Below are positions 4,828 through 19,562 of a DNA stretch of 64,000 nucleotides, one piece after another (the first letter of the stretch is position 1; each line of letters begins with the position of its first letter). A program made the translations under genes and the position numbers. The stretch is from Nanobdellota archaeon (GTDB lineage Archaea > Nanobdellota > Nanobdellia > SCGC-AAA011-G17 > PNOQ01). The notes beneath the pieces were generated by a model. It saw only the letters and a list, made by a program, of their open reading frames with translations, had not been told where the DNA came from and did no database searches. The DNA is taken from the NCBI GenBank assembly GCA_018829185.1, contig JAHJUI010000019.1:5757-69756 (forward strand). The letters run 5' to 3'.

Positions 4828-4966
4828 ATAATGGGTTTGATATTTGTTTTTATAAATCTTATGGCAGCCAAGATTTTTTATCTTTTAATTTGTCTGGTAA
4901 GTATTTTGTCATAACATAATTTAATCCATGTTTAGCTAAAGCTTGTTGTTTTTTAAATTTTTTGGT

Positions 4967-5114
4967 TTAACATCGGAATTTAACGGTTCCGAAACCTTGC
5001 AGGTTTCTCCACCCAAATCGCCTTCGGAGACTTCGTTAAATTCCTGTTAGTTTCTTCAGAATACTTGGAAGGATTGATTTTTAGTGCAACGATGCCGTAG
5101 GCAAAAAATCAAAG
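4967..5114. repeat. structured repeat module A, copy 1 (hairpin with ATTTAAC...GTTAAAT ends, then TGTTAGTT and ...GCAAAAAATCAAAG)
   Basis: ttaacatcggaatttaacg [49-nt centre] cgttaaattcctgttagtt ... tagtgcaacgatgccgtaggcaaaaaatcaaag. Related copies at 12742-12941 and 13711-13857. The 11-bp outer stem is ggaatttaacg/cgttaaattcc. Confidence 0.6.
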
Positions 5115-5159
5115 TAATTTCAGGGGCGTATTCAATCAAGCGAACACAGTGAGCAATCA

Positions 5160-5340
5160 AGAATAAGCATCAAGGGGCAATTTTCGTCCGTTCGTCGTTC
5201 GTGGGGGAATTCCGTTTTTTGCTTCTTTTTTTTAAAAAAGAAGATTTTAGAGGGGGCTTTTATTTTGGTTCTTTTTCTAAAAGAACGGGTGGGAGAGAAG
5301 CGAGGGCGGGAAGTTTGGGGCGAGAAAACTATTTTCCGAT
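5160..5340. repeat. repeat module B, copy 1 (GC-richer; palindrome cttcttttttttaaaaaagaag)
   Basis: Inverted, diverged copy of 12543-12735. Shared blocks agttttctcgcccc, aaaagccccctc, cggaattccccc, aaaattgcccc and cccctgaaatt lie in the same order with similar spacing. Confidence 0.5.
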
Positions 5341-6292: not shown

Positions 6293-6300
6293 GGGTTAAA

Positions 6301-6450
6301 ATGGATTCAAAAAATATCACATTGCGAGTAAATTCTAAAGTTTATGATAGATACAGAGAACTTTGCAAGAAGAAAGGCTTATTAGTTTCTAGGCAGGTTG
6401 AAATAATGATGGAAGAACAATTAAAAAAAGAGGATGGAAACAATGAGTAA
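6301..6450 (+). CDS. small ribbon-helix-helix (CopG-like) protein, 49 aa (not in ORF track)
   Basis: My translation: MDSKNITLRVNSKVYDRYRELCKKKGLLVSRQVEIMMEEQLKKEDGNNE. A beta-strand (ITLRV) followed by two helices is the RHH pattern. Its stop overlaps the start of the RM gene (ATGAGTAA at 6443-6450). Confidence 0.5.
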   Translation: MDSKNITLRVNSKVYDRYRELCKKKGLLVSRQVEIMMEEQLKKEDGNNE

Positions 6451-9400
6451 AGAAAATTCTCTTTTCAAAGAAGCTACAATTAAAAGATTAGTTTCTAATG
6501 TTAATTTAACTGCTAAACATAAAAAAGCCGTAAACAAATGGTTAGATTATTTTAATAGTGGAAAATTAGAAAATGAAAAACAAGCATATATAGAATTTGC
6601 TAACATCATTCTTAGAGATTTATTAGATTATGACATCAGTCTTGAAGGTCTTAAACACGAAGAAGAAAACATAGAATTTTTATTTAAGAAAGATGGTAAT
6701 AATCTTATTTGTTTTGAAGCAAAAGGAGCAAAGACTAAAGACTTATGGGCTTATCAAGGAAGAGATAAAAAATCAAGAGAAACTCCAGTTAATCAAATAA
6801 ATTCTTATTTGTATGATAAAATAATTCCATTTGGCATTTTAACAAATTATAGATTATTTGTTTTATTTGATCGTAATGAAGGCAGTAAAAAATATCATCT
6901 AATTGATTTTACAGAATTAACTAAAGAAGATAAACTAAAAGAATTTATTGCTCTTTTCTCAAGAGAACAAGTAGAAAAAGGATTTATTACCGAAGTAATC
7001 CAACAATCCATTGTTGAAGAAAGAGAATTTACTAAAGAGTTCTATAAATTATATCACGAAACAAGGTTAATGCTAATTAAAGAATTTGAAGAAAATTCAG
7101 GGATTAGTAGAGAGGCTTCTGTTCATTTTGCACAATTATATCTTAATAGATTAATGTTTGTATTTTTTGCAGAAGATACTGGAAAAATTGATAAGAGAAT
7201 TATAGAAGAGAGGGTTATCAAAACATTAGATAACATTCATCTATTTTCATCAAATTCCTCAAATATTTCCAATGTTTTAGTTGGCTTGTTTAATGACTTG
7301 GATAAAGGAAGTGATTTTCCAGTTAAATTATTTGGGTTTAATGGTGGTTTGTTTAAACATCCAATTCCGCCAAAAATATTTTTTAAAGACTTTAGAGATG
7401 ATAAATTTTTCAAAGATGTAAATCAAAACTCTAAACTAAAGAAGAAAGAATTAGAATTAAACGACAATGAAAAAGAAGTATTTCACAAATACAAAAATAG
7501 GATTAGTCCAGTAATAAAAAATATTTTGATAATGGATTCTTTTGATTTCAATTCTGAAGTTAATGTAAATATTTTAGGTCATATTTTTGAGCAATCTATT
7601 TCCGATATTGAAGATTTGAAGACTGACAAAAGTTCTCGAAGAAAGAAAGAAGGAATATTTTATACTCCTGAATACATTACTGACTACATTTGCAGAAATA
7701 CAATTATAACTTATTTATCTAAGAAAGGAATTAATTCAGTTCCTGAATTAATAAAAGAATATGCTGAGAACATTGAAGAGTTGGAAGAGAAGTTTAAAGC
7801 AATTAAAATATTAGATCCTGCTTGCGGTTCTGGTGCATTCTTGATTAAAGCTACTGATATTATGCTTGAGATTTTCAGAGCAATTCAAGAGTTTAAGCAA
7901 AGCGAAGGAGAATATGAAGCAAAAAAAGGATTAAAAAAGAAAAGCAATGCAAAAGGACAATTAGTATTAGAAAAATGGAATGAAGAAGCAGAAGCAAGAG
8001 AAATAATCGAGAATAGTATTCATGGAGTAGATATTAACGAAGAATCTGTTGAGATAACAAAACTTTCTTTATTCTTAAAGATGGCTAGAAAGAATAGAAA
8101 GCTTACAGATTTATCAAATAATATAAAACAAGGAAACAGCTTAATCAATGATTCAGAAGTTGCAGGAGACTTGGCATTTGACTGGGATAAAGAATTTCCA
8201 TTCAAGTTTGATGTTGTTATTGGGAATCCTCCGTATGTTTTTGCAAGAGAAAAAGTATCTCAAGAAGAAAAAGATTATTATAAAAAATATTATGATTCTG
8301 CTGATTATCAGGTGAACACCTATCTGCTTTTTATCGAAAAAACAATAAGTCTATTAAAAGATAATGGAACTTATGGTTTAATTGTTCCAAATGCTTGGTT
8401 AATGGTTTATTCTGGAAAAGGATTAAGAAAGTGCATATTAGACACTTGTAAATTAAACCAGATAATAAATTTAGAGGGTTTTTCTTTTGATGATGTAAGT
8501 GTTGAAACAATAATTATACTTGCAGAAAAGAAAAAAACTGATAAAAGTACTTTTAAGGTATACTTAAACAATGGAAAAGAGTTCGTATTTTCTCATAAAA
8601 AAAATCAGTCTGAGTTCACTAAAAGTAAAGGTTTTGAATTTAAAATTTTTTCTGATGAAACTAGCACATCATTAACTGAAAAAATAAAGAATGGTTCAGT
8701 TATTCTTGATTCAATTGTACAGATTAAAGCAGGATTGCAAGCATACGAAAAAGGAAAAGGTAATCCCAAGCAATCTGCTAAAGATGTTAAAGAAAGACCA
8801 TATGATTATAATTATAAGTTTGATTTACAAACACACAAATATCTTGATGGTAAGGATGTAGGTAGATATTTTGTTTCTTGGTCTGGACTATATTTAAAAT
8901 ACGGCGAACACTTAGCAGCACCAAGAACTTTTAATTTATTTGATGGTAAGAAAATTATAATCCGAGAAATAACAGGGAGATATCCTAAAAGCATTATTGC
9001 TACATATAGTGAGGAACTATATCTATATAATAGGAGTAATATTGCTATTATTGAGAAAGAAAATAAAAAAATATCATTAAAATATATATTATCTGTTCTT
9101 AACAGTTCTTTAATTTCTTATTACTTTATGAAAAATACTGCAAAGTCGGTTAGAAAGATGTTTCCAAAGGTCATTCTAAAAGATTTACGATTATTTCCGT
9201 TTAAAGAGCTTAATATAGAAGAGCAAAAACCATTTATAGAGAAAGCAGACTTAATGCTAAATCTGAACAAAGAATTCTATGACAAAAAGGATAAATTCTT
9301 CAACAGAATAAAAAAGTCTTTTAATTTAGAAAAATTAAACAAGAAACTTGATTCTTTCTATGAATTGGAATTTAATGATTTTGTTAAAGAAATTGAAAAA

Positions 9401-9589
9401 TTAAGCAAAAAGAAACTTTCATTAAAAGAACAAGACGAATGGGAAGATTACTTCAATGAATATAAAAAAGATTTATCAAATTTAAAGAACAATATTGAAA
9501 AAACTGACAACGAAATTAATCAGATGGTTTACAAACTATATGGTTTATCTAAAGAGGAGATACAGATAATTAAGGAGAGTTTGAGATGA
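6434..9589 (+). CDS. type IIG restriction-modification enzyme (N-terminal PD-ExK endonuclease, gamma-class N6-adenine methyltransferase, C-terminal target-recognition region)
   Basis: LLDYD...ICFEAKGAKTKD (D...EXK) at the N-terminus. ILDPACGSGAFL (SAM motif I) and VVIGNPPYVFAR (motif IV, NPPY) in gamma order. About 450 aa follow the NPPY motif, enough for a TRD. Size of 1051 aa fits MmeI/Eco57I-like single-chain enzymes. Confidence 0.8.
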   Translation: METMSKENSLFKEATIKRLVSNVNLTAKHKKAVNKWLDYFNSGKLENEKQAYIEFANIILRDLLDYDISLEGLKHEEENIEFLFKKDGNNLICFEAKGAKTKDLWAYQGRDKKSRETPVNQINSYLYDKIIPFGILTNYRLFVLFDRNEGSKKYHLIDFTELTKEDKLKEFIALFSREQVEKGFITEVIQQSIVEEREFTKEFYKLYHETRLMLIKEFEENSGISREASVHFAQLYLNRLMFVFFAEDTGKIDKRIIEERVIKTLDNIHLFSSNSSNISNVLVGLFNDLDKGSDFPVKLFGFNGGLFKHPIPPKIFFKDFRDDKFFKDVNQNSKLKKKELELNDNEKEVFHKYKNRISPVIKNILIMDSFDFNSEVNVNILGHIFEQSISDIEDLKTDKSSRRKKEGIFYTPEYITDYICRNTIITYLSKKGINSVPELIKEYAENIEELEEKFKAIKILDPACGSGAFLIKATDIMLEIFRAIQEFKQSEGEYEAKKGLKKKSNAKGQLVLEKWNEEAEAREIIENSIHGVDINEESVEITKLSLFLKMARKNRKLTDLSNNIKQGNSLINDSEVAGDLAFDWDKEFPFKFDVVIGNPPYVFAREKVSQEEKDYYKKYYDSADYQVNTYLLFIEKTISLLKDNGTYGLIVPNAWLMVYSGKGLRKCILDTCKLNQIINLEGFSFDDVSVETIIILAEKKKTDKSTFKVYLNNGKEFVFSHKKNQSEFTKSKGFEFKIFSDETSTSLTEKIKNGSVILDSIVQIKAGLQAYEKGKGNPKQSAKDVKERPYDYNYKFDLQTHKYLDGKDVGRYFVSWSGLYLKYGEHLAAPRTFNLFDGKKIIIREITGRYPKSIIATYSEELYLYNRSNIAIIEKENKKISLKYILSVLNSSLISYYFMKNTAKSVRKMFPKVILKDLRLFPFKELNIEEQKPFIEKADLMLNLNKEFYDKKDKFFNRIKKSFNLEKLNKKLDSFYELEFNDFVKEIEKLSKKKLSLKEQDEWEDYFNEYKKDLSNLKNNIEKTDNEINQMVYKLYGLSKEEIQIIKESLR

Positions 9590-10320
9590 ATCAGGATATT
9601 TCTCAAAAAATATTTCAGCAAGCAATAGATTTATGGATTAAACCTGAAATGGATAAAAGAAAATCTTTGAAAAGATTGCCAAAAGATTTTAAATTAAGAA
9701 GTGCTCAAATATTGTTTTCTTTGGATAGAGGTTGGAATAAGGTAAGGCTTAATGAAGAAGTTAAAGCAGTTGCTAAATGCAAAATCAATTGTGCAAAAAA
9801 TAAAGGAGATGCAATTTATGAAAAGGATATAGATGAAATTGAATCTATTAATCTAACTGAAAAAGATCCAAATTGTGCGCATATCACTTTATTATTATTT
9901 AAGAATAATTGGGTAATTTCATTTGATTTTGCATATAATAAGAAAAGAATTAAAGAGCATATAGATGTAGCTAAAGAATTTTTTGAGAGTGCCAAAGATA
10001 ATCTAGAAAAGAAGAGATTAAGACCATTTTTTGAAAATTCTTTTGCTTGTGCAGAACTTTCAGCAAAGGCTGTTTTACTTCAATTGCCAGATAAAGAGAT
10101 TTTACAAGGTAAGGATCATTCAACGAGAATTAATAAGTTTAAAAACTGGGCTAGTTTAGGCAATGTTAAACAAGAGCATTCAGAGATATTAGAAAGACTG
10201 AATCAACTCAGATCTTCTGCAAGATATTTATGTTCTACTGAATTTAAGAAAGAAAAACCAAAAGAGATTATATCTAAATTAAGCGAAATGATAAATTTTG
10301 CAGAGAGTAGGATAAAATGA
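9586..10320 (+). CDS. hypothetical protein, all-alpha C-terminal half (RM-linked)
   Basis: ATGA overlap with the RM gene at 9586-9589. No catalytic motif is confidently recognised. The C-terminal region (SAKAVLLQLPDKEILQGKDHSTRINKF) is helical. Confidence 0.45.
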   Translation: MNQDISQKIFQQAIDLWIKPEMDKRKSLKRLPKDFKLRSAQILFSLDRGWNKVRLNEEVKAVAKCKINCAKNKGDAIYEKDIDEIESINLTEKDPNCAHITLLLFKNNWVISFDFAYNKKRIKEHIDVAKEFFESAKDNLEKKRLRPFFENSFACAELSAKAVLLQLPDKEILQGKDHSTRINKFKNWASLGNVKQEHSEILERLNQLRSSARYLCSTEFKKEKPKEIISKLSEMINFAESRIK

Positions 10321-11099
10321 GTGATTTTCAACAAGTAAAAAATGTGGCAAAGAATTTTGTTAAAGAAAATAAAGAGTTTTTTGATAGATTTGAGAATGAA
10401 ATTGATGATTTGACTATTGGCAATTATTTTGATTTGTATTTGGGTAGTAAGGGAATCACTGCATTGAACACTGAAACAGAATTTGATAAGATGTATGATG
10501 ATGCTTTAGAAAAATTTCATAATGATAAAGAAAATTTACAAGATATAGAAAAATTGTTAATAGAGTTTCTTGATTTCTTAGTTTGGTTAAAAAAACAACA
10601 GGTCATTTTTAATGTTGACATTTCTGAACGTAAACAGTTACATAAAAATGCACTAGAGTATTCCAACACAATTAATAGAATTTATTTGAACAAAAATCTG
10701 GATGGAAAAGATAAGATTGAGATTTTGCTATTTTATTATTGTTCTCTTCAAGAGATATTTAAGAATGTTGTTCAAGAAGAACTGCTTTTGAATATTTGGA
10801 AACAAGGAAAAACTGATGTTTGTGATTTAAGAAAGAAACATATACAATTAGGTGATTTCAAAAATATAATTGAGAAATATGAAAAAAATAACAAACTATC
10901 GGATGGAATAAATAAGATATTTGATGTTGAATTAAGGAATAAAACACTTCATGCTGATTATTCTGTTAATAATGATGAAATTAAATATGGTTCAAAAAGT
11001 TTAAAAATAACTGATTTACAAAATAAAATAATTAAATTAGGAGTAAGTTTGCAGTTTTTTGTTTTATTTTACCTAAGACTATTTAAGGAATCTGATTAA
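10317..11099 (+). CDS. putative HEPN-domain protein (RNxxxH motif), Abi-like
   Basis: DVELRNKTLHADYSVN carries R-N-x3-H, the HEPN RNase signature as in the AbiD/AbiF (Abi_2)-type families. ATGA overlap with the upstream gene at 10317-10320. Confidence 0.5.
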   Translation: MSDFQQVKNVAKNFVKENKEFFDRFENEIDDLTIGNYFDLYLGSKGITALNTETEFDKMYDDALEKFHNDKENLQDIEKLLIEFLDFLVWLKKQQVIFNVDISERKQLHKNALEYSNTINRIYLNKNLDGKDKIEILLFYYCSLQEIFKNVVQEELLLNIWKQGKTDVCDLRKKHIQLGDFKNIIEKYEKNNKLSDGINKIFDVELRNKTLHADYSVNNDEIKYGSKSLKITDLQNKIIKLGVSLQFFVLFYLRLFKESD

Positions 11100-11100
11100 A

Positions 11101-12543
11101 ATGGCTCATCTCCTGACTAAATCTAAATATATGCAAGGACAACAATGTCTTAGATTATTATGGCTTTCTACAAATAAACTTCTTCCTGAAAAAACTATTG
11201 CTGAAAAGCAAAAGCTTGAACAAGGGCATGAATTTGAAGAATATGCTCATAAATTATTTCCTGATGCTGTAAATCTTGCTGAATTGGGATTCAATGAAAA
11301 TTTAGAAAAAACTAAAGAGTTAATAGAACAGAAAAAGATAATTTTTGAAGCAGGATTAAAAGTTGATGATATGTTTTTGAGAGCTGATGTTTTAGAGCCA
11401 ACAGAAAACGGCTGGAATCTATATGAGATTAAAGCATCCACAAAACAAAAACCTGAACATATCCCTGATTTAGCTTTTCAAAAATTTGTTTGTGAAAAAG
11501 CAGGATTAAACATAGAAAAAAGCTTTGTCTTACACTTAAATAAAGAGTTTATCAAAAATGGAAAGATAAACTCTAAAGAATTATCAACAATAGAAGAAGT
11601 TACTGAAAAAGTAAATCTTATTGATGATGTTGAGAATAATTCTAAATTATATCTTGAAATAATGAATTCAAAAGAAAAGCCTGAAATTTTAATCTCTAAA
11701 AACTGCAATTCCCCATATCCCTGTGCTGTTAAAAAAGATTGTTGGGGAACTTTACCAAAAAATAATGTTTTGCATTTGACAAATTGGAGAGTTTATTGGA
11801 ATCTTTTTGATGATGGAATTATTGACTTAAAAGATGTCCCAAAAGGCACAAAACTAACTCCAAAGGATGAAATCATCTTAGAAGGAGAAACCCAAGAAAA
11901 AATAATGATTTCAAAAGAACATATTAAACATTTTCTGAATTCTTTAAAATATCCTCTTTGTCATTTGGATTTTGAAACTTTTGATACTGCTGTTCCGATT
12001 TTTGATAAATCAAGACCATGGCAAAAAATGCCATTTCAGTATTCTGTTCATATTCAGCCAGAAAATGGAGAAATTATTCATTATGAATATTTAGCTGAAG
12101 ATGGAGAAGATCCAAGACCTAAACTTCTTGAAAATCTAAAAGAACATGCAAAAGGTTCAGGAAGTGTTATAGTTTTTAATAAATCATTTGAAATAAATGT
12201 CTTAAACAAATTAGCAGAAGATTTTCCAGAGCATAAAGATTGGATTCAAAATGTTTTAGACAGAATTATAGATTTAGCTTTTCCATTTCAAAGTTTTTAT
12301 TATTATAATCCATCTCAAAAAGGAAGTTATTCAATAAAGAAAGTCTTACCAGCAATTACTGGAAAAGGGTATACTGGCTTAGAAATTGGGAATGGTGGAG
12401 ATGCAAGTGCATTATATTTTTACAGCCATGTAAAAAAAGAGATTGATGGAAAAGAAGATATAAGAAAAAATCTCTTGAAATATTGTTGTTTAGATACAGA
12501 AGGAATGGTTTGGATTATTGATGAATTAAGGAAGTTAGTTTGA
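11101..12543 (+). CDS. Cas4/RecB-like PD-(D/E)xK nuclease with Cys cluster, fused to a DEDDy-type 3'-5' exonuclease domain (DUF2779-like architecture)
   Basis: N-terminal half: GQQCLRLLW (first Cys), RADVLEP...NLYEIKASTK (D...ExK), AFQKF, CNSPYPCAVKKDC (C-x5-C-x5-C). C-terminal half: LDFETFD (exo I, DxE), VIVFNKSFEINVL (exo II-like), YCCLDTEGM (exo III, YxxxD). It starts 1 nt after the upstream stop. Confidence 0.6.
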   Translation: MAHLLTKSKYMQGQQCLRLLWLSTNKLLPEKTIAEKQKLEQGHEFEEYAHKLFPDAVNLAELGFNENLEKTKELIEQKKIIFEAGLKVDDMFLRADVLEPTENGWNLYEIKASTKQKPEHIPDLAFQKFVCEKAGLNIEKSFVLHLNKEFIKNGKINSKELSTIEEVTEKVNLIDDVENNSKLYLEIMNSKEKPEILISKNCNSPYPCAVKKDCWGTLPKNNVLHLTNWRVYWNLFDDGIIDLKDVPKGTKLTPKDEIILEGETQEKIMISKEHIKHFLNSLKYPLCHLDFETFDTAVPIFDKSRPWQKMPFQYSVHIQPENGEIIHYEYLAEDGEDPRPKLLENLKEHAKGSGSVIVFNKSFEINVLNKLAEDFPEHKDWIQNVLDRIIDLAFPFQSFYYYNPSQKGSYSIKKVLPAITGKGYTGLEIGNGGDASALYFYSHVKKEIDGKEDIRKNLLKYCCLDTEGMVWIIDELRKLV

Positions 12544-12735
12544 GTTTTCTCGCCCCCTCTATAAAAATATCGAACGAAGTGAGTGAAAATGTCCGAAGGA
12601 CTAAAAGCCCCCTCGTTATATTATTTCTTTTTCCGCAGAAAAAGGCACTCTGTCCGTAGGACTCGGAATTCCCCCCGTCGTTTTCGTTTTTAGTTCGTTT
12701 AGTTAAAATTGCCCCCTTCGTTAGCCCCTGAAATT
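12543..12735. repeat. repeat module B, copy 2 (inverted relative to 5160-5340)
   Basis: See 5160-5340. The reverse complement of copy 1 aligns block by block and the copy ends with cccctgaaatt. Confidence 0.5.
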
Positions 12736-12741
12736 ATTGAG

Positions 12742-12941
12742 TTTAACATCGGAATTTAACGAAGTTGAATTTTGAGAGCTGGAGAGAGCCGAGGCAAACC
12801 ACGGCGAGCGACCTCCAAAATTCAATTTGGGTGGAGAAACTTGCAAGGTTTCGGAACCGTTAAATTCCTGTTAGTTGCGTCGGAGCGTAGCGGAGACCGA
12901 GGGATAGTGCAACGATTTTTGCGAAGCAAAAAATCACGAAG
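12742..12941. repeat. structured repeat module A, copy 2 (same outer ends as copy 1; central ~97 nt inverted and expanded)
   Basis: tttaacatcggaatttaacg [centre] cgttaaattcctgttagtt...gcaaaaaatcacgaag. The centre contains atttgggtggagaaacttgcaaggtttcggaacc, the reverse complement of the copy-1 centre ggttccgaaaccttgcaggtttctccacccaaat. Confidence 0.6.
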
Positions 12942-12949
12942 AGTAAGTT

Positions 12950-13660
12950 TTAAGCGGTTGTAACTTTTAATATCTGTTTAACAAAGTAGTCTGGCTCTCG
13001 TTTTCCTCTATAAGCGGGATGTGGTCCAATATAAATAGACTTTCCCATATCTAACAACCTCTTTAATAAAAATTTTTTGTATTTGAAAGAATTGCTCTGA
13101 AATACAATTATATTTGGATTGAAGATTTTGACTTCTTCAATGAAAAAATTTAGTTCAATCTTTTGATCTTGGTGAATTCTATTTTCTCCACCTGTTCTCT
13201 TTTTTCTATTTATTGAAACAAATTTGTAATAGTTTGTTAAAGCAATATAAGATAATGGATTAATTGGAGGTAATTTTTCTTGATATTGCAGTGCTTTCTG
13301 ACAAGATAATATATTTTTGAGGTTGTTCCAATAATTCTGCAAATTAAGATCATCTTTTAGAAAAAATATTGCAGTAAAATATGTTCCTGCGATATGAGGA
13401 TTATGTTTTGATACTGGTTTTTCTTCTATTGCTTGTCTTCTTTCTTCAAAAGATTGAATTCCTCCAATTTTTTCATCTGAACCTATATCTAATCCGACAA
13501 TTAAAATCTTCTTAGAGTTACCATAGTTTGAACCAACATATGGGAAAGTCGGAAATTTAATTCGAGGACTGTTTTTTAAGCATCCAGTTTTTTTATCTAT
13601 ATCAAATTTCTTAAATAAATCTTGATACTCATTTTTTAACTCAGATTGTATCATAATCAA
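12950..13660 (-). CDS. hypothetical protein (weak resemblance to the UDG-superfamily motif pattern)
   Basis: KILIVGLDIGSDE resembles UDG family-4 motif A (h-V-G-E-x-P-G-x-x-E) and GPHPAYRG resembles motif B (HPSP). The resemblance is weak. It sits alone between repeat copies A2 and A3. Confidence 0.35.
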   Translation of the reverse strand: MIMIQSELKNEYQDLFKKFDIDKKTGCLKNSPRIKFPTFPYVGSNYGNSKKILIVGLDIGSDEKIGGIQSFEERRQAIEEKPVSKHNPHIAGTYFTAIFFLKDDLNLQNYWNNLKNILSCQKALQYQEKLPPINPLSYIALTNYYKFVSINRKKRTGGENRIHQDQKIELNFFIEEVKIFNPNIIVFQSNSFKYKKFLLKRLLDMGKSIYIGPHPAYRGKREPDYFVKQILKVTTA

Positions 13661-13710
13661 TTAAACGAGAACCAGACTTTATAATTTTACCGCTTAAAAC
13701 TTATTGCAAC

Positions 13711-13857
13711 TAACATCGGCATTAACAGAAGTCGGCGTAGCCGATTTGGACGAAGAAGTCTGCAAGACTTCGTAGTCTGTTAATGCCTGTTAGTTTCTCC
13801 CGAATACTTGGAGGGATTGATTTTTAGTGCAACGATGCCAAAGGCAAAAAATCAAAG
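13711..13857. repeat. structured repeat module A, copy 3 (covarying stem cattaacag/ctgttaatg)
   Basis: taacatcggcattaacag [centre] ctgttaatgcctgttagtt...tagtgcaacgatgccaaaggcaaaaaatcaaag. The outer stem sequence differs from copies 1 and 2 but stays complementary. The inner hairpin gaagtc-TGCAA-gacttc corresponds to gaaacc-TTGCA-ggtttc. Confidence 0.6.
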
Positions 13858-14050
13858 TTGCAAATTCTCGTTCATATGATTGAGAGGACACTTTAGGACG
13901 GTGGGTTCCGTCTGTAAAACCTATTAAATAATAGAAATTGTTGTTGTATTTTGTCTTGTGAGCCGCCGCCTTTTTTGCTTCTTTTTTTCTAAAAAAGAAG
14001 AGGGGGAGTTTCCGCTCCATCTAAGGAATAAAACACCGCGTAAGGAACAA
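13858..14050. repeat. repeat module B, copy 3
   Basis: Shares ttttttgcttctttttttctaaaaaagaaga..ggggg with copy 1. An inverted copy lies at 18540-18700 with shared blocks ttgcaaattctc, gagaggacacttta (14/14), agaaattgttgt and gtgagccgcc. Confidence 0.45.
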
Positions 14051-14095: not shown

Positions 14096-14422
14096 ATGTG
14101 CAACATAAAAAGATTTAAAAAGAACCAAGTAAATATATTTATTATGCCTGATGAAAAAATTGCCAGAGCAATAAAAGCAAAAGTAAGAAGAGAAATGTTA
14201 CAGATACTTTGTCAAAAGGAAAAAATACCTGTTCATGAAATAGCAAATAAATTGAACATAACAGAGTCTTCTGCATCCAAACATTTGAAATTATTGTATG
14301 ATTTAGGTTTTGTAGATTTTGAAGAGAAACATCCAGAAAAATTTTATTTTCTTAAAATAAAAGAAATTAGAGAGCTATTTCAGGTCTATAATAAAATTAT
14401 CAAAAAATTAAGAGGTAAATGA
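14096..14422 (+). CDS. ArsR/TrmB-type winged-HTH transcriptional regulator
   Basis: VHEIANKLNITESSASKHLKLLYDLGFV is an HTH. ATGA overlap with the RuBisCO start at 14419-14422. Confidence 0.55.
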   Translation: MCNIKRFKKNQVNIFIMPDEKIARAIKAKVRREMLQILCQKEKIPVHEIANKLNITESSASKHLKLLYDLGFVDFEEKHPEKFYFLKIKEIRELFQVYNKIIKKLRGK

Positions 14423-15888
14423 AAATGAAAAAAGAACATAAACAATTGCTTAAAACACTTAATGAAAAACAACAAGCTTATGTAAACTTGAACTTGCCTG
14501 ACCCAAAAAATGGCGAGTATCTTCTTACAGTCTTTCATTTAGTTCCAAACGAAAAATTAAATATTTTACAAGCAGCTACAGAAGTTGCAGCAGAATCTTC
14601 TACTGGAACAACCTTTAAGGTGCAGACAGAAACCCCTTTTTCCAGAGAAATGAATGCTCTTGTTTATCAACTTGATTTAAAGAAAAATCTTGTATGGATT
14701 GCTTATCCTTGGAGGCTTTTTGACAGGGGAGGAAATGTGCAGAATATTTTGACATATATTGTTGGGAATGTTTTGGGAATGAAAAAAATAAATACTTTAA
14801 AATTATTAGATGTGTGGTTTTCTCCAGTAATGCTTGAGCAGTATGATGGGCCAAGTTATACAATAGATGATATGAGAAAATATTTGGATGTATATGACAG
14901 GCCTATTCTTGGAACCATTGTAAAGCCAAAAATGGGACTTACTTCTGCTGAATATGCAGAGGTGGCTTATGATTTCTGGGCAGGGGGTGGAGATTTTGTT
15001 AAAAATGATGAACCACAAGCAAATCAGGATTTTTGCCCATACGACAAAATGGTAAGATATGTAAAAAAAGCTATGGATAAAGCTGTCAAAGAAACTGGAA
15101 AGAAAAAAGTTCACTCTTTTAATGTTTCAGCAGCTGATTTTGATACTATGATTAAAAGATGTGAAATGATTAGAAATGCAGGTTTTGAACCAGGAAGTTA
15201 TGCGTTCTTAATTGATGGAATCACTGCTGGTTGGACAGCAGTGCAAACTCTTAGAAGAAGATATCCAGACGTATTTATTCACTTTCATAGAGCAGGTCAT
15301 GGAGGGTTTACAAGACCAGAAAATCCAATGGGATTCACAGTTTTGGTTCTGTCTAAATTTGCAAGATTAGCCGGAGTTTCAGGAATTCATACTGGAACTG
15401 CAGGTGTTGGAAAAATGTCTGGAAAGCCAGAAGAAGATGTTGTAGCTGCGCACAATATTTTAAGTTACATAGCAAAAGGACATTTTTTTGAGCAAAGCTG
15501 GGGAAAGATTCCTGAAAAAGATGAAGATGCTTCGAAGCTCGTTCATGAAGATGCAATTCACCATCTTATTTTAGAAGATGACAGCTGGAGAGGAATGAAA
15601 AAATGCTGTCCTATTATCTCTGGAGGATTAAATCCAATGTTATTGAAGCCGTTTATTGATATAATGAATAATACTGATTTTATTACAACAATGGGGGCAG
15701 GTGTTCATGCTCATCCAAGAGGGACTAAAGCTGGTGCAACTGCATTGGTTCAGGCATGCGAAGCTTATCTTAAAAAAATAGATATCAAAGAATATGCTAA
15801 AGACCATCCTGAATTAGCTGAAGCTATCAAGTTTTTTTCAAAAAAACCAAAGGATGTGGAAGTAGCTGAGGAAACTGAAAAGAGTTAA
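14419..15888 (+). CDS. rbcL: ribulose-1,5-bisphosphate carboxylase, large subunit, type III (archaeal)
   Basis: GGGDFVKNDEPQ (GxDFxKxDE), TIVKPKMGLT (carbamylated-Lys region), FIHFHRAGHGG (HRA.H) and the C-terminal GGL..M.. pattern. No small-subunit gene nearby, consistent with form III. Confidence 0.85.
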   Translation: MKMKKEHKQLLKTLNEKQQAYVNLNLPDPKNGEYLLTVFHLVPNEKLNILQAATEVAAESSTGTTFKVQTETPFSREMNALVYQLDLKKNLVWIAYPWRLFDRGGNVQNILTYIVGNVLGMKKINTLKLLDVWFSPVMLEQYDGPSYTIDDMRKYLDVYDRPILGTIVKPKMGLTSAEYAEVAYDFWAGGGDFVKNDEPQANQDFCPYDKMVRYVKKAMDKAVKETGKKKVHSFNVSAADFDTMIKRCEMIRNAGFEPGSYAFLIDGITAGWTAVQTLRRRYPDVFIHFHRAGHGGFTRPENPMGFTVLVLSKFARLAGVSGIHTGTAGVGKMSGKPEEDVVAAHNILSYIAKGHFFEQSWGKIPEKDEDASKLVHEDAIHHLILEDDSWRGMKKCCPIISGGLNPMLLKPFIDIMNNTDFITTMGAGVHAHPRGTKAGATALVQACEAYLKKIDIKEYAKDHPELAEAIKFFSKKPKDVEVAEETEKS

Positions 15889-15930
15889 TAACAAGATCAA
15901 GTTTTCATAGTTCTTCTTTTTTCTTTATAA

Positions 15931-16482
15931 TTGGTGTTAAGAATGAAAAAAGCAATATTTTTAGACAGAGACGGAACATTAATTGAAGATAGTGGTTATG
16001 CTTATAGAATAGAAGATTTAAAAATTTATCCTGGCGTTGTTGAAGGCCTAAAATTATTACAAAACGATTATTTGTTTTTTATTATAACAAACCAATCAGG
16101 AATTGGAAAAGGGTTCTACACAACAAAAGACTTTCATAGATTTAACAATTCTCTTTTAGAACAATTGAGAAACCAAAATATAAGAATAGAAAGAACATAT
16201 TTTTGTCCGCATATTGGTGATTGTAAGTGTAAAAAACCAAGTACAAAATACATAGAAGAAATTGTTTCTGAGTATAGTATTGATTTAGTAGAATCGTGGG
16301 TTATTGGAGATCATCCCTCTGATATTATTATGGGTAAAAATGCTGGTTGCAAAACAGCATACCTTCTTTCAGGGCATGGCACAAAACATTTTCAAGAGCT
16401 TGAATTAAAAAGAATAAAACCAACAATTATTACAGAAGATTTTTTATCTACTGCTAAATCTATTAGAGAATATGAAAACTAA
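15931..16482 (+). CDS. HAD-superfamily phosphatase, GmhB / histidinol-phosphatase-like
   Basis: AIFLDRDGTLIED (DxDGT motif I), IITNQSG (motif II), CPHIGDCKCKKP (GmhB-type Zn site), GDHPSD (motif IV). Confidence 0.65.
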   Translation: MVLRMKKAIFLDRDGTLIEDSGYAYRIEDLKIYPGVVEGLKLLQNDYLFFIITNQSGIGKGFYTTKDFHRFNNSLLEQLRNQNIRIERTYFCPHIGDCKCKKPSTKYIEEIVSEYSIDLVESWVIGDHPSDIIMGKNAGCKTAYLLSGHGTKHFQELELKRIKPTIITEDFLSTAKSIREYEN

Positions 16483-17512
16483 AATAATCAAAATAAATCC
16501 TGAAAAACTAGAGATATCTAAGGTCAAGATAGCGGCAGAAACTTTGAGAAAAGGGGGACTAGTGGCCTTTCCTACTGAAACTGTTTATGGTCTTGGGGCA
16601 GATGCTTTAAACTCGGAAGCTATTAAAAAAATATTTGAAGCGAAGGGAAGACCTATAGATAATCCATTAATAGTTCATATTGCAGATAAAAAAGAAGTTT
16701 ATAGGTTAGCAAGGGAAGTTCCAAGAGAGGCAGAAAAATTAATTAATAAATTTTGGCCAGGTCCTTTGACTATTATTTTGAAAAAGTCTAATATTGTTTC
16801 AGATATTATAACTGCTGGTTTAGATTCTGTAGCAATCAGAATGCCTAATAATAAAATCGCTCTAACATTAATTAAAAAATCTAAAGTTCCCATAGTTGCT
16901 CCATCAGCAAATCTTTCTGGAAAACCAAGTCCTACAATGGCTGAACATGTAATACAAGATTTATATGGGAAGATTGAGATTATTATAGATGGTGGTGAAA
17001 CAGATATTGGTGTTGAATCTACTGTTCTTGATTTAACTACAAATCCTCCAACCTTATTAAGGCCAGGGGGAGTTGATTTAGAAAAACTAAAAAAGGTTTT
17101 AGGCAAAATTAAGATATATCCAATGGTTAAAGGAAAACAGATAAAGAAAATTGCTGTTAAATCGCCGGGAATGAAGTACAGGCATTATGCCCCAAATGCA
17201 AAAGTGATTTTAGTTGAGGGAAAATATGAACGAGTTAAAAATAAAATTCAAGAACTTACAGATAAATACAAGAAGAAAGGGAAAAAGATTGCTATAATGA
17301 CCACTAATAAAAACTATAATTATAAAACAGGTGTAATAAAATTTATCGGAAAAGATTGTGATGTAATTGCTAAAAATTTATTCAAAACTTTTCGGGAATT
17401 TGATAAAGAAAAAGTTGATTTAATTATTGCTGAAGGAGTTAGTGATAATGGGCTAGGGCTTGCTGTAATGAACAGATTGAGAAAAGCTTCCTATAAAATT
17501 ATATGTATCTAA
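16472..17512 (+). CDS. sua5: L-threonylcarbamoyladenylate synthase (Sua5/TsaC, YrdC domain plus Sua5 C-terminal domain)
   Basis: GGLVAFPTETVYGLGADA and the RPLTII..K...D pattern are YrdC-domain hallmarks. About 140 aa of Sua5-type C-terminal domain follow. Confidence 0.85.
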   Translation: MKTKIIKINPEKLEISKVKIAAETLRKGGLVAFPTETVYGLGADALNSEAIKKIFEAKGRPIDNPLIVHIADKKEVYRLAREVPREAEKLINKFWPGPLTIILKKSNIVSDIITAGLDSVAIRMPNNKIALTLIKKSKVPIVAPSANLSGKPSPTMAEHVIQDLYGKIEIIIDGGETDIGVESTVLDLTTNPPTLLRPGGVDLEKLKKVLGKIKIYPMVKGKQIKKIAVKSPGMKYRHYAPNAKVILVEGKYERVKNKIQELTDKYKKKGKKIAIMTTNKNYNYKTGVIKFIGKDCDVIAKNLFKTFREFDKEKVDLIIAEGVSDNGLGLAVMNRLRKASYKIICI

Positions 17513-17547
17513 AATAAATATAGGGGTGTTAAATATTAATATGCAAA

Positions 17548-18426
17548 ATGAAAAAACATAAAATTTTATACACATCAGATATTCATGGAAATGAAGTTCA
17601 ATATTCAAAACTCATACAATATGCTATAAAGGTATCTGCGGACAGCATTATCATTGGGGGAGATATTGCTCCTAAAGGTGGGGCTATTGAAGATTATATT
17701 GAATATCAGAGAAATTTTTTAGAATATCGTTTACCAGAAATGCTACAACCCTTAAAAAAATATTTACCAAATTCTAACTTGTTTTTAATGATGGGAAACG
17801 ATGATTGTGCAGCTAATATGGATGTATTAGAAAATAGCAAATTGTTTAAAGTTATCCATAATAAAAGAATAAAATTAACAGAAGATTTTGAAATAGTGGG
17901 TTATTCTTTTGTACCAATTACCCCATTTGGAATAAAAGATTGGGAAAAATATGATTTAAGCAAAGTTCCAGCGACTTTGAAGAAAAAATATGCTGAAAGA
18001 AAATTAACAAATTATCGGCTTAATGGAATTAAGAGTATCAAAACCAGATGGAAAATATTTCAGTTTGATTCAGGCATGGAAGTACAAGATTCTATTCAAA
18101 AAGATTTGTCAAGAAAAATATTCAGTAAAAATCCTAAGAAAACTGTTTACATTATCCATTCTCCCCCAGATAATACTAAATTAGATATTGTATCAAATAG
18201 AAATCATGTGGGAAGTATGGCGGTAAGATTGTTCATTGAAAAAGAACAACCATATTTAACTTTACATGGACATATTCATGAGACTGTCGATATTTCTGGC
18301 ACTTTTAAACATAATATCAAAAACACTTTATGTTTAACTTCTGGAAATCATAATGTTGGCGAGCAATTGGCAGTATTAGTTTTTGATTTATATAATCCTC
18401 AAGATGTAAGAAGAATAATTATTTGA
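17548..18426 (+). CDS. calcineurin-like metallophosphoesterase
   Basis: ILYTSDIHGN, IIGGDIAPKG, MMGNDDC, IIHSPP and LHGHIHE are the MPE metal-ligand motifs. Confidence 0.7.
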   Translation: MKKHKILYTSDIHGNEVQYSKLIQYAIKVSADSIIIGGDIAPKGGAIEDYIEYQRNFLEYRLPEMLQPLKKYLPNSNLFLMMGNDDCAANMDVLENSKLFKVIHNKRIKLTEDFEIVGYSFVPITPFGIKDWEKYDLSKVPATLKKKYAERKLTNYRLNGIKSIKTRWKIFQFDSGMEVQDSIQKDLSRKIFSKNPKKTVYIIHSPPDNTKLDIVSNRNHVGSMAVRLFIEKEQPYLTLHGHIHETVDISGTFKHNIKNTLCLTSGNHNVGEQLAVLVFDLYNPQDVRRIII

Positions 18427-18539: not shown

Positions 18540-18700
18540 AAAGTCCGAGACTATCTATCACGAAGTGATTAAGGCGGCTCACTTATTTTTTACAACAATT
18601 TCTACAATTTAGGGGCGGGTGGTCGGGGGTTTTAAAGTGTCCTCTCCTATATTTCGTTTTTTTCTTTAAAGTTAGAGAATTTGCAATTGTAACTAACAAG
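18540..18700. repeat. inverted, truncated copy of repeat B plus the terminal TGTTAGTT of module A (aactaaca at 18691-18698)
   Basis: Reverse complement reads ttgttagttacaattgcaaattctct...gagaggacacttta...agaaattgttgt...gtgagccgcc, collinear with 13788-13990. It lies 45 bp upstream of the tyrosine recombinase start. Confidence 0.45.
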
Positions 18701-18743
18701 TTATATAGATAAATTTATATATAATTTAGTTATATAAGGATGT

Positions 18744-19562
18744 ATGGACGAACTTGAGATGTTAAAGGTTGAATTAGACTATCGAGGATTTAGTAACAAA
18801 ACTAAGAAATCTTATACTTTCTTTGTGCATGATTTTCTAAAATATATAAAAAAGGAACCTTCTGATATCAATAAGGACGATATTAAAAATTATATCTCCC
18901 ACTTAATCACAAAGAAAGGATACACTAATATTACTGCAAACTTAGCAATAAGTTCTTTAAAATTCTTTTTTAGTAAAGTTCTAGAAAAGACTATTTGTGA
19001 TAAAATTGAAAGGCCAAAAAGAGAGAAAAATTTACCAAGTGTTTTGTCAAAAGAAGAAGTTAAAAGAATTATAGATTCCGGTAATAATATAAAACATAAA
19101 CTTGTTTTAAAATGTTTATATGGAATGGGTTTAAGAGTCTCTGAGTTAATTGATCTAAAAGTTAATGATTTAGAATTTGATAGAAATATGGCTAAAATTT
19201 CTTCTGGAAAAGGGAATAAACAAAGGTACGTTATGCTGTCTGGAATATTGAAATCTGATTTAATGAAATATATTGAATTGCAAAAACCTGAAAAATATTT
19301 GTTTTCCGGAAGAAAAGGAAAATATAGTGTAAAATCTATACAAAAAATATTTGAAAATGCTGCTAAAAAAGCTAAAATAAAGAAAAAAGCTAGCTGTCAT
19401 ACGTTAAGGCATTCTTTTGCTACCCATTTATTAGAAAATGGAACTGACATTAGATACATTCAAAAATTGCTTGGACATTCTAGATTACAAACTACTCAGA
19501 TTTATACACATGTAGCAGATAGTAAACTAAAAAATATTAAAAGCCCATTAGATGATTTATAA
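18744..19562 (+). CDS. tyrosine site-specific recombinase, XerA/XerCD-like
   Basis: C-terminal catalytic box HTLRHSFATHLLENGTDIRYIQKLLGHSRLQTTQIYTHV (R..H..R/H..Y) with the N-terminal core-binding domain. At 272 aa it is Xer-sized, with no obvious IntI-type extra domain. Confidence 0.8.
   Translation: MDELEMLKVELDYRGFSNKTKKSYTFFVHDFLKYIKKEPSDINKDDIKNYISHLITKKGYTNITANLAISSLKFFFSKVLEKTICDKIERPKREKNLPSVLSKEEVKRIIDSGNNIKHKLVLKCLYGMGLRVSELIDLKVNDLEFDRNMAKISSGKGNKQRYVMLSGILKSDLMKYIELQKPEKYLFSGRKGKYSVKSIQKIFENAAKKAKIKKKASCHTLRHSFATHLLENGTDIRYIQKLLGHSRLQTTQIYTHVADSKLKNIKSPLDDL

What the first reader, a model, noticed from the sequence alone, without database searches (positions are those of the whole stretch)
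12761..12857. Central segment of repeat A is inverted between copy 1 and copy 2 while the outer ends stay direct
Copy-1 centre ggttccgaaaccttgcaggtttctccacccaaat appears in copy 2 as its reverse complement atttgggtggagaaacttgcaaggtttcggaacc. The flanking tttaacatcggaatttaacg and cgttaaattcctgttagtt are identical and in the same orientation in both copies. The centre is bounded by the 11-bp inverted repeat ggaatttaacg/cgttaaattcc, so this looks like site-specific or IR-mediated DNA inversion (a flip-flop). Copy 2 also carries an extra nested palindrome (ttgaattttgagag...ctccaaaattcaa).
Basis: seen in the sequence. Interest (0 to 1): 0.5.

Follow-up and report, generated by a model that had tools for sequence, protein, structure and literature searches.

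The report
Flipped hairpin in XerA-linked cassette array
The inverted centre is real, but it looks like a fixed flip in one copy of a conserved DNA hairpin element that separates gene cassettes in front of the xerA recombinase gene in DPANN archaea, which suggests an integron-like gene-capture platform that I could not find described.

Summary
The 48 nt between the 11-bp arms of copy 1 (4986-5033) are the exact reverse complement of the standard interior, and the arms stay direct.

There are three copies (E1 4965-5114, E2 12741-12943, E3 13708-13857). They belong to a composite hairpin element found in 78 loci, almost all in DPANN archaea. It matches no Rfam family.

Its helices covary. The top strand folds better than the bottom in 31 of 32 sites; the only exception is the flipped E1.

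Among 52 sites that have an interior, 50 have the E2/E3 orientation. E1 is the odd one. It shows the same flipped state in every assembly that covers this locus, so nothing supports an active flip-flop.

Related strains do have rearrangement breakpoints inside this hairpin.

The elements separate short, mostly single-gene cassettes. Each cassette is bounded by its own inverted repeats ("tail" and "head"). The array ends at a short version of the site directly in front of xerA. This also holds at xerA loci chosen without using the motif.

Best reading: these are recombination sites of an integron-like, XerA-associated cassette array, and E1 carries a one-off inversion between its arms. A structured-RNA reading is not excluded.

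The parts
4965..4985 (+). E1 left arm of hairpin P1 (GTTTAACA-TC-GGAATTTAACG): outer box TTTAACA, 2-nt bulge TC, inner 11-nt arm.
   Evidence: Pairing with the right arm shows covariation across the family.
4986..5033 (-). E1 interior, flipped. Read on the minus strand it is AAGT, a mini-hairpin CTCCGAAGGCG, then the conserved core ATTTGGGTGGAGAAACCTGCAAGGTTTCGGAAC.
   Evidence: Its reverse complement is 47/48 identical to the interiors of L002, L064 and L078. Orientation census 50 canonical to 2 flipped. E1 is the only one of 32 sites whose bottom strand folds better than its top strand.
5034..5052 (+). E1 right arm (CGTTAAATTCC-TGTTAGTT).
5053..5114 (+). E1 modules P2 and B: a 4-5-bp hairpin with conserved loop GAATACTTGGA, then helix TTGATTTTT/AAAAATCAA enclosing TAGTGCAACGAT and the mini-hairpin GCC-GTA-GGC.
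   Evidence: (D3). Compensatory helix classes are visible in the listing.
5115..5329 (+). tail_x: left inverted repeat of cassette x (TAATTTCAGGGGC ... GGGGCGAGAAAAC).
   Evidence: It shares 19 ten-mers with the reverse complement of 12540-12745, against a shuffle maximum of 3. Alignment score 58 against shuffles of 24 +/- 4.
5378..12543 (+). Cassette x cargo: five co-directional genes (DUF5655/NucS-like, MmeI-like type IIG restriction-modification enzyme, HEPN, one unknown, DUF2779).
   Evidence: The same block follows a different upstream context in ERZ27247117 k141_351652.
12544..12736 (+). head_x: right inverted repeat of cassette x (GTTTTCTCGCCCC ... GCCCCTGAAATTA).
12741..12943 (+). E2: complete site in the canonical orientation. 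Left arm 12741-12761, interior 12762-12857 with a long variable hairpin, right arm 12858-12876, P2 and B 12877-12943.
   Evidence: (MFE -48.8 kcal/mol, z -3.8).
12944..12958 (+). tail_y (TAAGTTTTAAGCGGT): left inverted repeat of cassette y. It overlaps the stop-codon end of the minus-strand ORF 12950-13660.
   Evidence: Exact 15-nt reverse-complement match to 13689-13703.
12950..13660 (-). Cassette y cargo: one ORF of 236 aa with no Pfam or NCBIfam match.
13689..13703 (+). head_y (ACCGCTTAAAACTTA).
13708..13857 (+). E3: complete site in the canonical orientation. Left arm 13708-13728, right arm 13777-13795, P2 and B 13796-13857.
   Evidence: (MFE -53.5 kcal/mol, z -5.3).
13858..13967 (+). tail_z (TTGCAAATTCTC ... 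GAGAGGACACTTTA ... TAGAAATTGTTGT ... GTGAGCCGCC).
   Evidence: Collinear blocks shared with the reverse complement of 18573-18686: 12 shared ten-mers against a shuffle maximum of 3.
14096..18426 (+). Block z: ArsR-type regulator, form III RuBisCO, HAD hydrolase, Sua5/YrdC, metallophosphatase.
18573..18686 (+). head_z (GGCGGCTCAC ... GAGAATTTGCAA).
18687..18739 (+). site0: a short AT-rich version of the site (TTGTAACTAAC-29 nt-TTAGTT) that ends 4 nt before the xerA start codon.
   Evidence: Equivalent boxes lie in front of xerA in L002, L012, L035, L073 and in xerA loci chosen without the motif: L102-L108.
18744..19562 (+). xerA, a tyrosine recombinase of 272 aa.
   Evidence: NF040815 recomb_XerA_Arch scores 260.7 bits (cut-off 220). 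The integron-integrase models fall below their cut-offs.

Best explanation
The 'repeat A' copies are the apical hairpin (P1) of a composite, ~150-200-nt structured element (P1, P2, B).

In this DPANN archaeon, and in many others, this element marks the junctions of a cassette array:
[site]-tail-gene(s)-head-[site]-tail-gene(s)-head- ... -[short site]-xerA.

Each cassette is bounded by its own inverted repeats (tail and head). Sites are direct repeats of one another.

Most likely (inferred) the sites are recombination sites. Circular cassettes would enter or leave by recombination within the site, which leaves hybrid head/tail combinations as attL and attR do.

The neighbouring XerA would be the recombinase. 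It would act on the folded top strand, as integron integrases act on attC and as XerCD acts on the folded attP of CTX phage. The outer AAC/GTT box and the inner arm would be the two binding boxes, and the TC bulge would mark the strand.

Copy 1 (E1) is the first site of the array. Its 48-nt interior was turned round once, either by recombination between the 11-19-bp inverted arms or by a replication template switch across them. That state is now fixed.

The flip is therefore a scar in a recombination-prone hairpin, not a working switch.

Shown:
- the inversion;
- the family and its folded structure;
- the strand bias;
- the cassette architecture;
- the link to xerA;
- strain-level breakpoints inside the hairpin.

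Inferred:
- that XerA acts on the sites;
- the single-stranded mechanism;
- the way the flip arose.
For: 1. Inversion. The reverse complement of the E1 interior is 47/48 identical to canonical interiors in three other genomes, with direct arms.

2. Family. 78 loci match, almost all in DPANN MAGs; none in viral contigs; no Rfam family.

3. Structure. 90.4% of cells are paired and 12 pairs change on both sides. The covariation score is 0.417 against 0.151 in shuffles (0/500 reach it) and at most 0.135 when partners are slid.

4. Strand bias. The top strand is more stable in 31 of 32 sites; the exception is E1. GNA triloops outnumber their complement 43 to 12.

5. Orientation. 50 canonical, 2 flipped. 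E1 is flipped in every assembly that covers it.

6. Breakpoints in related strains:
- L088 is identical to the window up to 5018 and then different.
- L082 has the same island and interior behind a different left arm and different upstream genes.
- L089 (flank 99.6% identical) has a canonical site of another class followed by a one-gene cassette with perfect 17-nt inverted repeats.

7. Tail/head repeats. Pairs x, y and z lie in the window. Family-wide, the reverse complement of the tail finds a strong downstream match in 34 of 69 cases, against 6-8 of 69 for controls. At least 15 of these are followed at once by the next site's TTG.AACTAAC, against 0-1 for controls.

8. Cassettes. 12 of 18 hold one ORF. 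The cargo is accessory: restriction enzymes, GNAT acetyltransferase, nuclease, peptidases, unknowns.

9. xerA link.
- xerA lies downstream on the same strand in 9 of 79 motif loci and in the window.
- It passes the XerA model in the window and in 5 of the 6 loci tested.
- At xerA loci picked by protein homology alone, site boxes lie in front of xerA in all 5 genomes, and full arrays in 2 of the 3 with enough upstream sequence.

10. Confinement. In the 64-kb window the motifs occur only between 4.9 and 18.8 kb.
Against: No experiment or read-level data show excision, integration or XerA binding.

The modules (arm, core, P2, B, tail) occur in many combinations. For example, E1 and L011 share B and tail_x but differ in P2. 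No single crossover point can be defined, and plain homologous recombination among copies would give the same mosaics.

ORF orientation inside cassettes is mixed, 11 co-directional and 7 opposite, unlike integrons.

Block z carries genes that look like core genes (RuBisCO, Sua5).

The same tail class flanks different cargo in different genomes.

The strand bias and the covariation are predicted equally well by a transcribed structured RNA.

28 of 81 sites lack the P1 interior or the whole hairpin, so P1 cannot be essential for whatever P2 and B do.

The head/tail pair z is not significant by gapped alignment alone (43 against a shuffle maximum of 45). Only the block test supports it.
Confidence: 0.5

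Rival explanations
1. The element is a structured non-coding RNA (or a UTR or processing element) transcribed from the top strand. Its conserved loops would bind proteins or other RNA. The tail/head repeats would pair in long transcripts, and the flipped E1 would be a damaged copy.
For: Strong covariation. Top-strand folding bias in 31 of 32 sites. Invariant loop sequences (TAGTGCAACGAT, GAATACTTGGA, ATTTGG..TGCAA) across distant DPANN lineages. Fold z-scores of -3.8 and -5.3 for E2 and E3.
Against: No Rfam match, even at E-value 10. An RNA role gives no reason for the consistent position and strand upstream of xerA, for cassette-like single-gene spacing, or for strain-level rearrangement breakpoints inside the element. 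Loops are mostly GNA triloops; GNRA and UUCG loops are rare, which is more typical of stable DNA mini-hairpins (my own knowledge). Cassette genes lie on either strand relative to the site.
Confidence: 0.2
2. The elements are selfish palindromic mosaic repeats, in the manner of BIME/REP, BOX or mitochondrial GC clusters, which pile up in an AT-rich genome. Rearrangements and the flip would come from ordinary homologous recombination or replication slippage between copies, with no dedicated recombinase and no cassette mobility.
For: Modular mosaic of a limited set of alleles for each module. GC-rich islands in a ~30% GC genome. Breakpoints fall at the edges of the most conserved blocks, as homologous recombination would give. 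Many assemblies break at the elements.
Against: The elements are not dispersed: the window has them only in one 14-kb array. They have a constant direction and end at xerA. The folded structure and one strand are under selection. Spacing is regular, one cassette per site, with cassette-specific inverted repeats.
Confidence: 0.17
3. One reading: the 48-nt centre is an actively invertible segment that a recombinase flips between the 11-bp inverted repeats, giving two functional states.
For: Perfect 11-bp inverted repeats bound a precisely inverted segment. A tyrosine recombinase gene is in the same array. A second flipped example exists in another genome, L043.
Against: A single orientation per locus in all assemblies. 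50 to 2 across the family. The flipped copy loses the top-strand folding advantage. No recombinase gene is adjacent, and the segment holds no evident promoter or ORF.
Confidence: 0.06

Closest known systems
Integrons (IntI integrase, attC sites, gene cassette arrays), including the archaeal integrons of Ghaly et al. 2022 (PMC9668308)
   Same: Arrays of short, mostly single-gene accessory cassettes are separated by imperfect hairpin sites in direct orientation. The sites have conserved AAC...GTT outer boxes, an inner paired box, extrahelical bases and a variable apical structure. One strand is favoured for folding. A Xer-clade tyrosine recombinase gene sits at one end of the array next to a simpler site.
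   Different: The recombinase passes the XerA model and fails both integron-integrase cut-offs. It is co-directional with the sites and lies at the far end of the array.

Each site carries extra conserved modules (P2, B), and each cassette has long terminal inverted repeats (tail and head).

ORF orientation is mixed. The boxes AACTAAC/GTTAGTT each deviate at one position from RYYYAAC/GTTRRRY.

Ghaly et al. report bacterial-type IntI and attC in only 75 of 6718 archaeal genomes. Their held supplementary text contains none of these motifs.
Xer/dif systems and elements that exploit them (IMEX such as CTX phage; pdif modules of Acinetobacter plasmids; dif next to xerS or xerH)
   Same: A housekeeping-type Xer recombinase gene has a short palindromic site directly upstream, as difSL/xerS and difH/xerH do (my own knowledge). 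Gene blocks are flanked by repeated related sites. The folded-hairpin site is conceptually like the single-stranded attP of CTX phage.
   Different: No classical 11-6-11 dif could be identified. The sites here are 150-200 nt and composite, are present several times, and have conserved apical cores.
Small inversions of hairpin loops between short inverted repeats (for example the 'minute inversions' of chloroplast non-coding DNA; quasipalindrome template switching); from my own knowledge
   Same: This is the event seen in E1: everything between the two arms of a stem is reverse-complemented and the stem itself is unchanged.
   Different: Those cases concern neutral spacers. Here the loop is a conserved, structured 48-nt module whose orientation is otherwise kept in 50 of 52 sites.
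Flip/flop isomers of parvovirus ITRs and poxvirus hairpin telomeres; from my own knowledge
   Same: A Y- or T-shaped three-way hairpin whose internal arms occur in two mutually inverted configurations relative to the outer stem.
   Different: Those are termini of linear replicons, with roughly equal flip and flop produced by replication. These elements are internal chromosomal sites with a strongly preferred orientation.

Membership tests
Integron | attC core sites R'' RYYYAAC and R' GTTRRRY at the base of the hairpin | tested here: inconclusive
   The outer boxes are AACTAAC, TTTAAC or TATAAC and (C)TGTTAGTT, GTTAAGT or GTTAAAC. AAC and GTT are conserved. The commonest pair AACTAAC/GTTAGTT breaks the consensus at one position each. 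The attC covariance model of IntegronFinder could not be run.
Integron | Imperfect palindrome that folds as a single strand, with extrahelical bases and a variable terminal structure | tested here: met
   TC bulge, covarying inner arm and a variable mini-hairpin of 11-117 nt. Top-strand bias in 31 of 32 sites.
Integron | IntI integrase with the IntI-specific additional domain | tested here: not met
   TIGR02249 scores 238.5 (cut-off 265) and NF011946 scores 155.7 (cut-off 435), while the XerA model NF040815 scores 260.7 (cut-off 220). The protein has 272 aa. The same pattern holds in 6 other loci.
Integron | Array of mostly single-ORF cassettes, each followed by a site, with sites in direct orientation | tested here: met
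   12 of 18 delimited cassettes hold one ORF. Arrays are seen in the window, L089 and L100.
Integron | Cassette ORFs nearly all co-oriented, read from a promoter at the integrase end | tested here: not met
   The first ORF is co-directional in 11 cassettes and opposite in 7. xerA lies at the downstream end and is co-directional with the sites.
Xer/dif (and IMEX) | Xer-family recombinase | tested here: met
   NF040815 equivalog is passed in the window and in 5 of 6 other loci.
Xer/dif (and IMEX) | 28-bp dif: two 11-bp arms around a 6-bp spacer, unique in the chromosome | tested here: inconclusive
   Short inverted repeats with ~6-nt spacers lie in front of xerA in L002 and L052. The window's site0 is AT-rich and ambiguous. 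No archaeal dif sequence was available for comparison. Uniqueness cannot be judged from a 64-kb window.
Invertible DNA switch (phase-variation inverton) | Both orientations present at one locus within a population | tested here: not met
   One orientation appears in all assemblies of E1, E2 and E3. Raw reads were not available.
Invertible DNA switch (phase-variation inverton) | Dedicated invertase gene next to the segment, and a promoter or coding end inside it | tested here: not met
   The neighbours are a DUF4932 gene and a DUF5655 gene. The 48-nt segment is a conserved hairpin module without an ORF.
REP/BIME- or MITE-type dispersed repeats | Many copies scattered over intergenic regions; for MITEs, terminal inverted repeats plus target-site duplication | tested here: not met
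   The window has motif matches only at the three sites, within 4.9-13.9 kb. There is no target-site duplication at the hairpin; arm differences between classes are compensatory, not direct repeats.
Known RNA families (Rfam 15) | Covariance-model match | tested here: not met
   No hit at gathering thresholds in the window apart from two tRNAs. Only chance-level hits appear at E-value up to 10 over the three regions.

The most novel reading that the evidence does not exclude
DPANN archaea (Woese-, Pace-, Nano-, Aenigm- and Diapherotrites-type lineages) carry an integron-like gene-capture platform. Its recombinase would be the chromosomal XerA. Its sites would be large composite hairpins used as folded single strands, and its cassettes would carry their own terminal inverted repeats. 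That would be a cassette system distinct from IntI/attC integrons, and it would explain the variable defence and accessory islands next to xerA.
Probability: 0.35. Interest if true: 0.85.

Novelty: new variant of a known kind. Interest (0 to 1): 0.6.

Why it matters
DPANN archaea have tiny genomes, and how they acquire and shuffle defence and surface genes is poorly understood.

A conserved, structured site family that punctuates single-gene cassettes and ends at xerA would give these organisms an integron-like platform built on the housekeeping dimer-resolution recombinase. It would also provide a sequence signature (CCTGTTAGTT...TAGTGCAACGAT) for finding such arrays in metagenomes, and it may explain why assemblies of these genomes break just upstream of xerA.

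For the finding as stated, the practical message is that the inverted centre is a historical flip in a recombination-prone hairpin. It should not be annotated as a phase-variation switch.

Tried and rejected
- Archaeal replication-origin boxes (dyad plus G-string) were considered for the G-rich motifs after copy 1. Rejected: the motifs are one arm of a cassette-flanking inverted repeat, no orc1/cdc6 gene is near, and three origins in 9 kb is implausible.
- tRNA-type intron or bulge-helix-bulge insertion into an RNA gene was considered, because 28 sites lack the interior. No host RNA gene was found.
- MITE insertion with an AATT target duplication was considered. Rejected: other classes have compensatory arms, not direct repeats.
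- A protein partner encoded next to the element was sought by clustering ORFs of 79 loci. Only XerA stood out, in 9 loci.
- A loose regular expression for further sites in the window gave as many hits on the reversed sequence (30 against 30), so it was dropped.
- A scan of viral contigs gave nothing.
- A metagenome scan for the E1 left junction returned only the JGI contig already in hand.
- Exact-protein look-up of the 236-aa ORF with its TTG start found nothing.
- The archaeal dif sequence could not be recovered from the text of two papers.
- The literature searches found no description of this element.
- My attempt to read E1 as the shared hairpin of two divergent arrays (from L082 and L088) stayed ambiguous, and I do not rely on it.

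Full report
**1. The observation**

Shuffles give no match. The repeat finder extends this to 44 nt at 98% complementarity.

The flanks GTTTAACATCGGAATTTAACG and CGTTAAATTCCTGTTAGTT are identical and direct at both places: 4965-4985 and 5034-5052, and 12741-12761 and 12858-12876.

The inversion covers the entire 48 nt between the 11-bp arms of copy 1. Reverse-complemented, it reads AAGT-CTCCGAAGGCG-ATTTGGGTGGAGAAACCTGCAAGGTTTCGGAAC. This is 47/48 identical to the interior of sites in three unrelated assemblies, L002, L064 and L078.

Several different assemblers give the same sequence, and their k-mers (127 or 141 nt where stated in the contig names) are longer than the hairpin. An assembly artefact is therefore unlikely (inference).

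**2. Anatomy**

A third copy lies at 13708-13857. Each copy has three parts:
- P1, a Y-shaped hairpin. It has an outer box, a TC bulge, an 11-nt inner arm, AAGT, a variable mini-hairpin and a conserved core hairpin with a TGCAA loop.
- P2, a short hairpin with the loop GAATACTTGGA.
- B, a helix that encloses TAGTGCAACGAT and a mini-hairpin.

Copies 2 and 3 share one interior orientation. Copy 1 is the exception.

**3. A widespread family**

The pattern CCTGTTAGTT-N(20-40)-TAGTGCAACGAT has 22 specified bases, so I estimate about one chance hit in that collection. It found 78 loci in species-representative genomes.
- Almost all are DPANN MAGs labelled Woese-, Pace-, Nano-, Aenigm- or Nanohaloarchaeota. 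A few lie in bins with other labels, probably mis-binned.
- One hit, L004, looks like a chance match.
- Viral contigs gave none.
- Rfam has no family for it.

The window itself is ~30% GC and carries intron-containing tRNA genes, which fits a DPANN archaeon. Identical contigs belong to NCBI MAGs GCA_018828805.1 and GCA_018819765.1.

**4. It is a folded, strand-specific structure**

On 22 distinct sites, the P1 and core structure I drew has:
- 90.4% of cells paired;
- 12 pairs with changes on both sides;
- a covariation score of 0.417, against 0.151 for shuffles (0 of 500 reach it) and at most 0.135 for slid partners.

P2 and the B helix also occur in several compensatory classes: GTCC/GGAC, TCCC/GGGA, CCAC/GTGG, CCCT/AGGG and CCTC/GAGG for P2, and TTGATTTTT, CTAAAATTT, CTGATTTTT and CTTAATTTTT with matching partners for B (read directly).

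The top strand folds better than the bottom strand in 31 of 32 full sites. The mean is -56.6 against -48.2 kcal/mol with RNA parameters, and 30 of 32 with DNA parameters. The single exception is the flipped E1.

Hairpin loops are enriched in GNA triloops (43) over their complement TNC (12). GNRA (7) and UUCG (0) are scarce.

**5. Orientation census and population check**

Of 81 sites, 50 have the canonical interior and 28 have none. One apparent flip, L040, was a false call. Two are flipped: E1 and L043.

E1 is flipped in every assembly that covers the locus:
- the window;
- GCA_018828805.1;
- JGI 3300015370;
- Logan SRR26275509;
- SRR6514730, where the contig ends inside the hairpin;
- two different contigs of ENA ERZ27247117.

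Some of these may come from one sampling project, so I do not claim that all are independent.

E2 and E3 are invariant in all assemblies that cover them.

**6. The hairpin is a rearrangement hot spot**

Three close relatives differ from the window exactly here.
- L088 is 100% identical to window 1-5018. It then continues with a different mini-hairpin and the reverse complement of a left arm of another class, followed by other genes.
- L082 carries the same island, tail, B, right arm and flipped interior, but behind a different left arm, a decayed inverted P2-B and restriction-modification genes.
- L089 has a flank 99.6% identical to the window. At the same position it has a canonical site of another class, then one 202-aa gene bounded by the perfect inverted repeat TTTTTGGCTTGGCTTTT/AAAAGCCAAGCCAAAAA, then the next site.

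**7. Cassette architecture**

The ~215 nt after E1 (tail_x, 5115-5329) are the reverse complement, block by block, of the ~190 nt before E2 (head_x, 12544-12736). Likewise tail_y (12944-12958) matches head_y (13689-13703), and tail_z (13858-13967) matches head_z (18573-18686).

The array therefore reads:
E1-tail_x-five defence genes-head_x-E2-tail_y-one gene-head_y-E3-tail_z-five genes-head_z-site0-xerA.

Family-wide, the reverse complement of the first 45 nt after B has a strong downstream match in 34 of 69 cases, against 6-8 of 69 for three controls. In at least 15 cases the match is followed directly by TTG.AACTAAC, the start of another site, against 0-1 for controls.

Of 18 cleanly delimited cassettes, 12 hold a single ORF and most are 0.35-2 kb long. 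The cargo includes an MvaI/BcnI restriction enzyme, a GNAT acetyltransferase, a secreted nuclease, peptidases and proteins without matches. The window's cassette x is a defence island.

**8. Link to xerA**

Clustering the ORFs of 79 loci singled out one protein: a tyrosine recombinase located 0.2-3 kb downstream on the same strand in 9 loci, and also present in the window. It passes NCBIfam's XerA equivalog model and fails the integron-integrase models.

In front of its start codon lies the head of the last cassette, then ATTG..TAACA, then a short AT-rich palindrome.

As a check free of motif bias, I fetched xerA neighbourhoods through protein homologs of 52-74% identity.
- All five genomes have the ATTG..TAAC box, often with TGTTAG, within ~110 nt of the ATG.
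- Two of the three with upstream sequence have full sites with single-gene cassettes (L100, L107).
- Many contigs stop 60-900 nt upstream of xerA.

In the window the motifs occur nowhere outside this 14-kb stretch.

**9. Interpretation**

The hybrid head/tail combinations at successive sites are what serial integration of circles carrying head-site-tail into a resident site would leave. This is inference, and it is topologically the same as attL and attR.

The AAC...GTT outer box, the inner paired box, the bulge, the variable apex and the single-strand bias resemble integron attC sites and the folded attP of CTX phage used by XerCD (my own knowledge). XerA is the only recombinase associated with the sites.

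I therefore favour XerA-dependent recombination at folded sites, but this step is not shown. The free reshuffling of modules means that homologous recombination among copies could explain much of the pattern.

The flip of E1 is most simply a single inversion between the arms, by template switching or short-repeat recombination, as is known for hairpin loops in chloroplast spacers (my own knowledge). It has since been inherited through later rearrangements, because L082 and L088 share it.

**10. Comparison with the literature**

Ghaly et al. 2022 describe archaeal integrons with bacterial-type IntI and attC in 75 of 6718 genomes, including a few Woese- and Pacearchaeales MAGs with 2-5 attCs. 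Their held supplementary text contains none of the motifs found here. I cannot exclude that some of their attC hits are P1 hairpins.

Cortez et al. 2010 state that the Thermococcales dif does not lie next to xerA.

The searches of the held library found no description of this element.

**11. Limits**

- Everything rests on MAG and metagenome assemblies.
- No reads, transcripts or biochemistry were available.
- The 78 loci were selected with an exact 22-nt pattern, so the diversity of P2 and B is under-sampled.
- Loci are 8-kb chunks.
- The RNA reading remains open.

Noticed in passing
window 444-567 (-) and 29568-29662 (+): Rfam finds two tRNA genes of 124 and 95 nt, so both presumably contain introns. 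ARAGORN in bacterial mode finds none. This fits an archaeal (DPANN) origin.
   Followed up: partly
window 5378-12543: A five-gene defence island: a DUF5655/NucS-like protein, a 1051-aa MmeI-like type IIG restriction-modification enzyme, a HEPN protein, an unknown protein and a DUF2779 (Cas4-like) protein. The same island sits behind different upstream genes in ENA ERZ27247117 k141_351652.
   Followed up: partly
window 19608-20645: An ORF with LAGLIDADG or intein-like similarity lies directly after xerA, followed by topoisomerase VI genes in the related contigs.
   Followed up: no
window 14096-15888: An ArsR-type regulator and a form III RuBisCO lie inside the block bounded by tail_z and head_z. 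The repeats therefore enclose metabolic genes that look like core genes, not only accessory ones.
   Followed up: no
L097, L101, L105, L106, L107, L108, L094, L095, L084-L086, L091: Contigs from many different assemblies start or end inside these elements or 20-900 nt upstream of xerA. This suggests that the arrays routinely break short-read assemblies of DPANN genomes.
   Followed up: partly
L043 (CAYWPA010000010.1), about 2680-2823 in my orientation: The second site with a flipped interior. Its two arms are perfectly symmetric (TTTAACAGGAATTTAACG / CGTTAAATTCCTGTTA) and lack the TC bulge.
   Followed up: partly
L088, next to the hybrid site (reverse complement of about 2600-2800): Three tandem copies of CCTTTGATTATGCTTGT(C/T)ATAT lie immediately after the hybrid hairpin, before an STT3 gene.
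   Followed up: no
L004 (Bacilli bin); L005, L024, L070, L071 (Gammaproteobacteria bins); L033, L043, L059, L060, L072, L074 (Methanosarcinales bins): L004 looks like a chance match inside a coding region. The other loci carry typical elements and AT-rich DPANN-like flanks, so these contigs are probably mis-binned.
   Followed up: no
window 50629-50736 and 51451-51558: A direct repeat of 108 nt at 76% identity, unrelated to the element studied (D2).
   Followed up: no
window 18687-18739 and the equivalent positions in L002, L052, L102, L107: The short palindromic site directly in front of xerA could be the dif site of these archaea, lying next to its recombinase gene as in the XerS and XerH systems. 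It could not be tested, because no archaeal dif sequence was available.
   Followed up: partly
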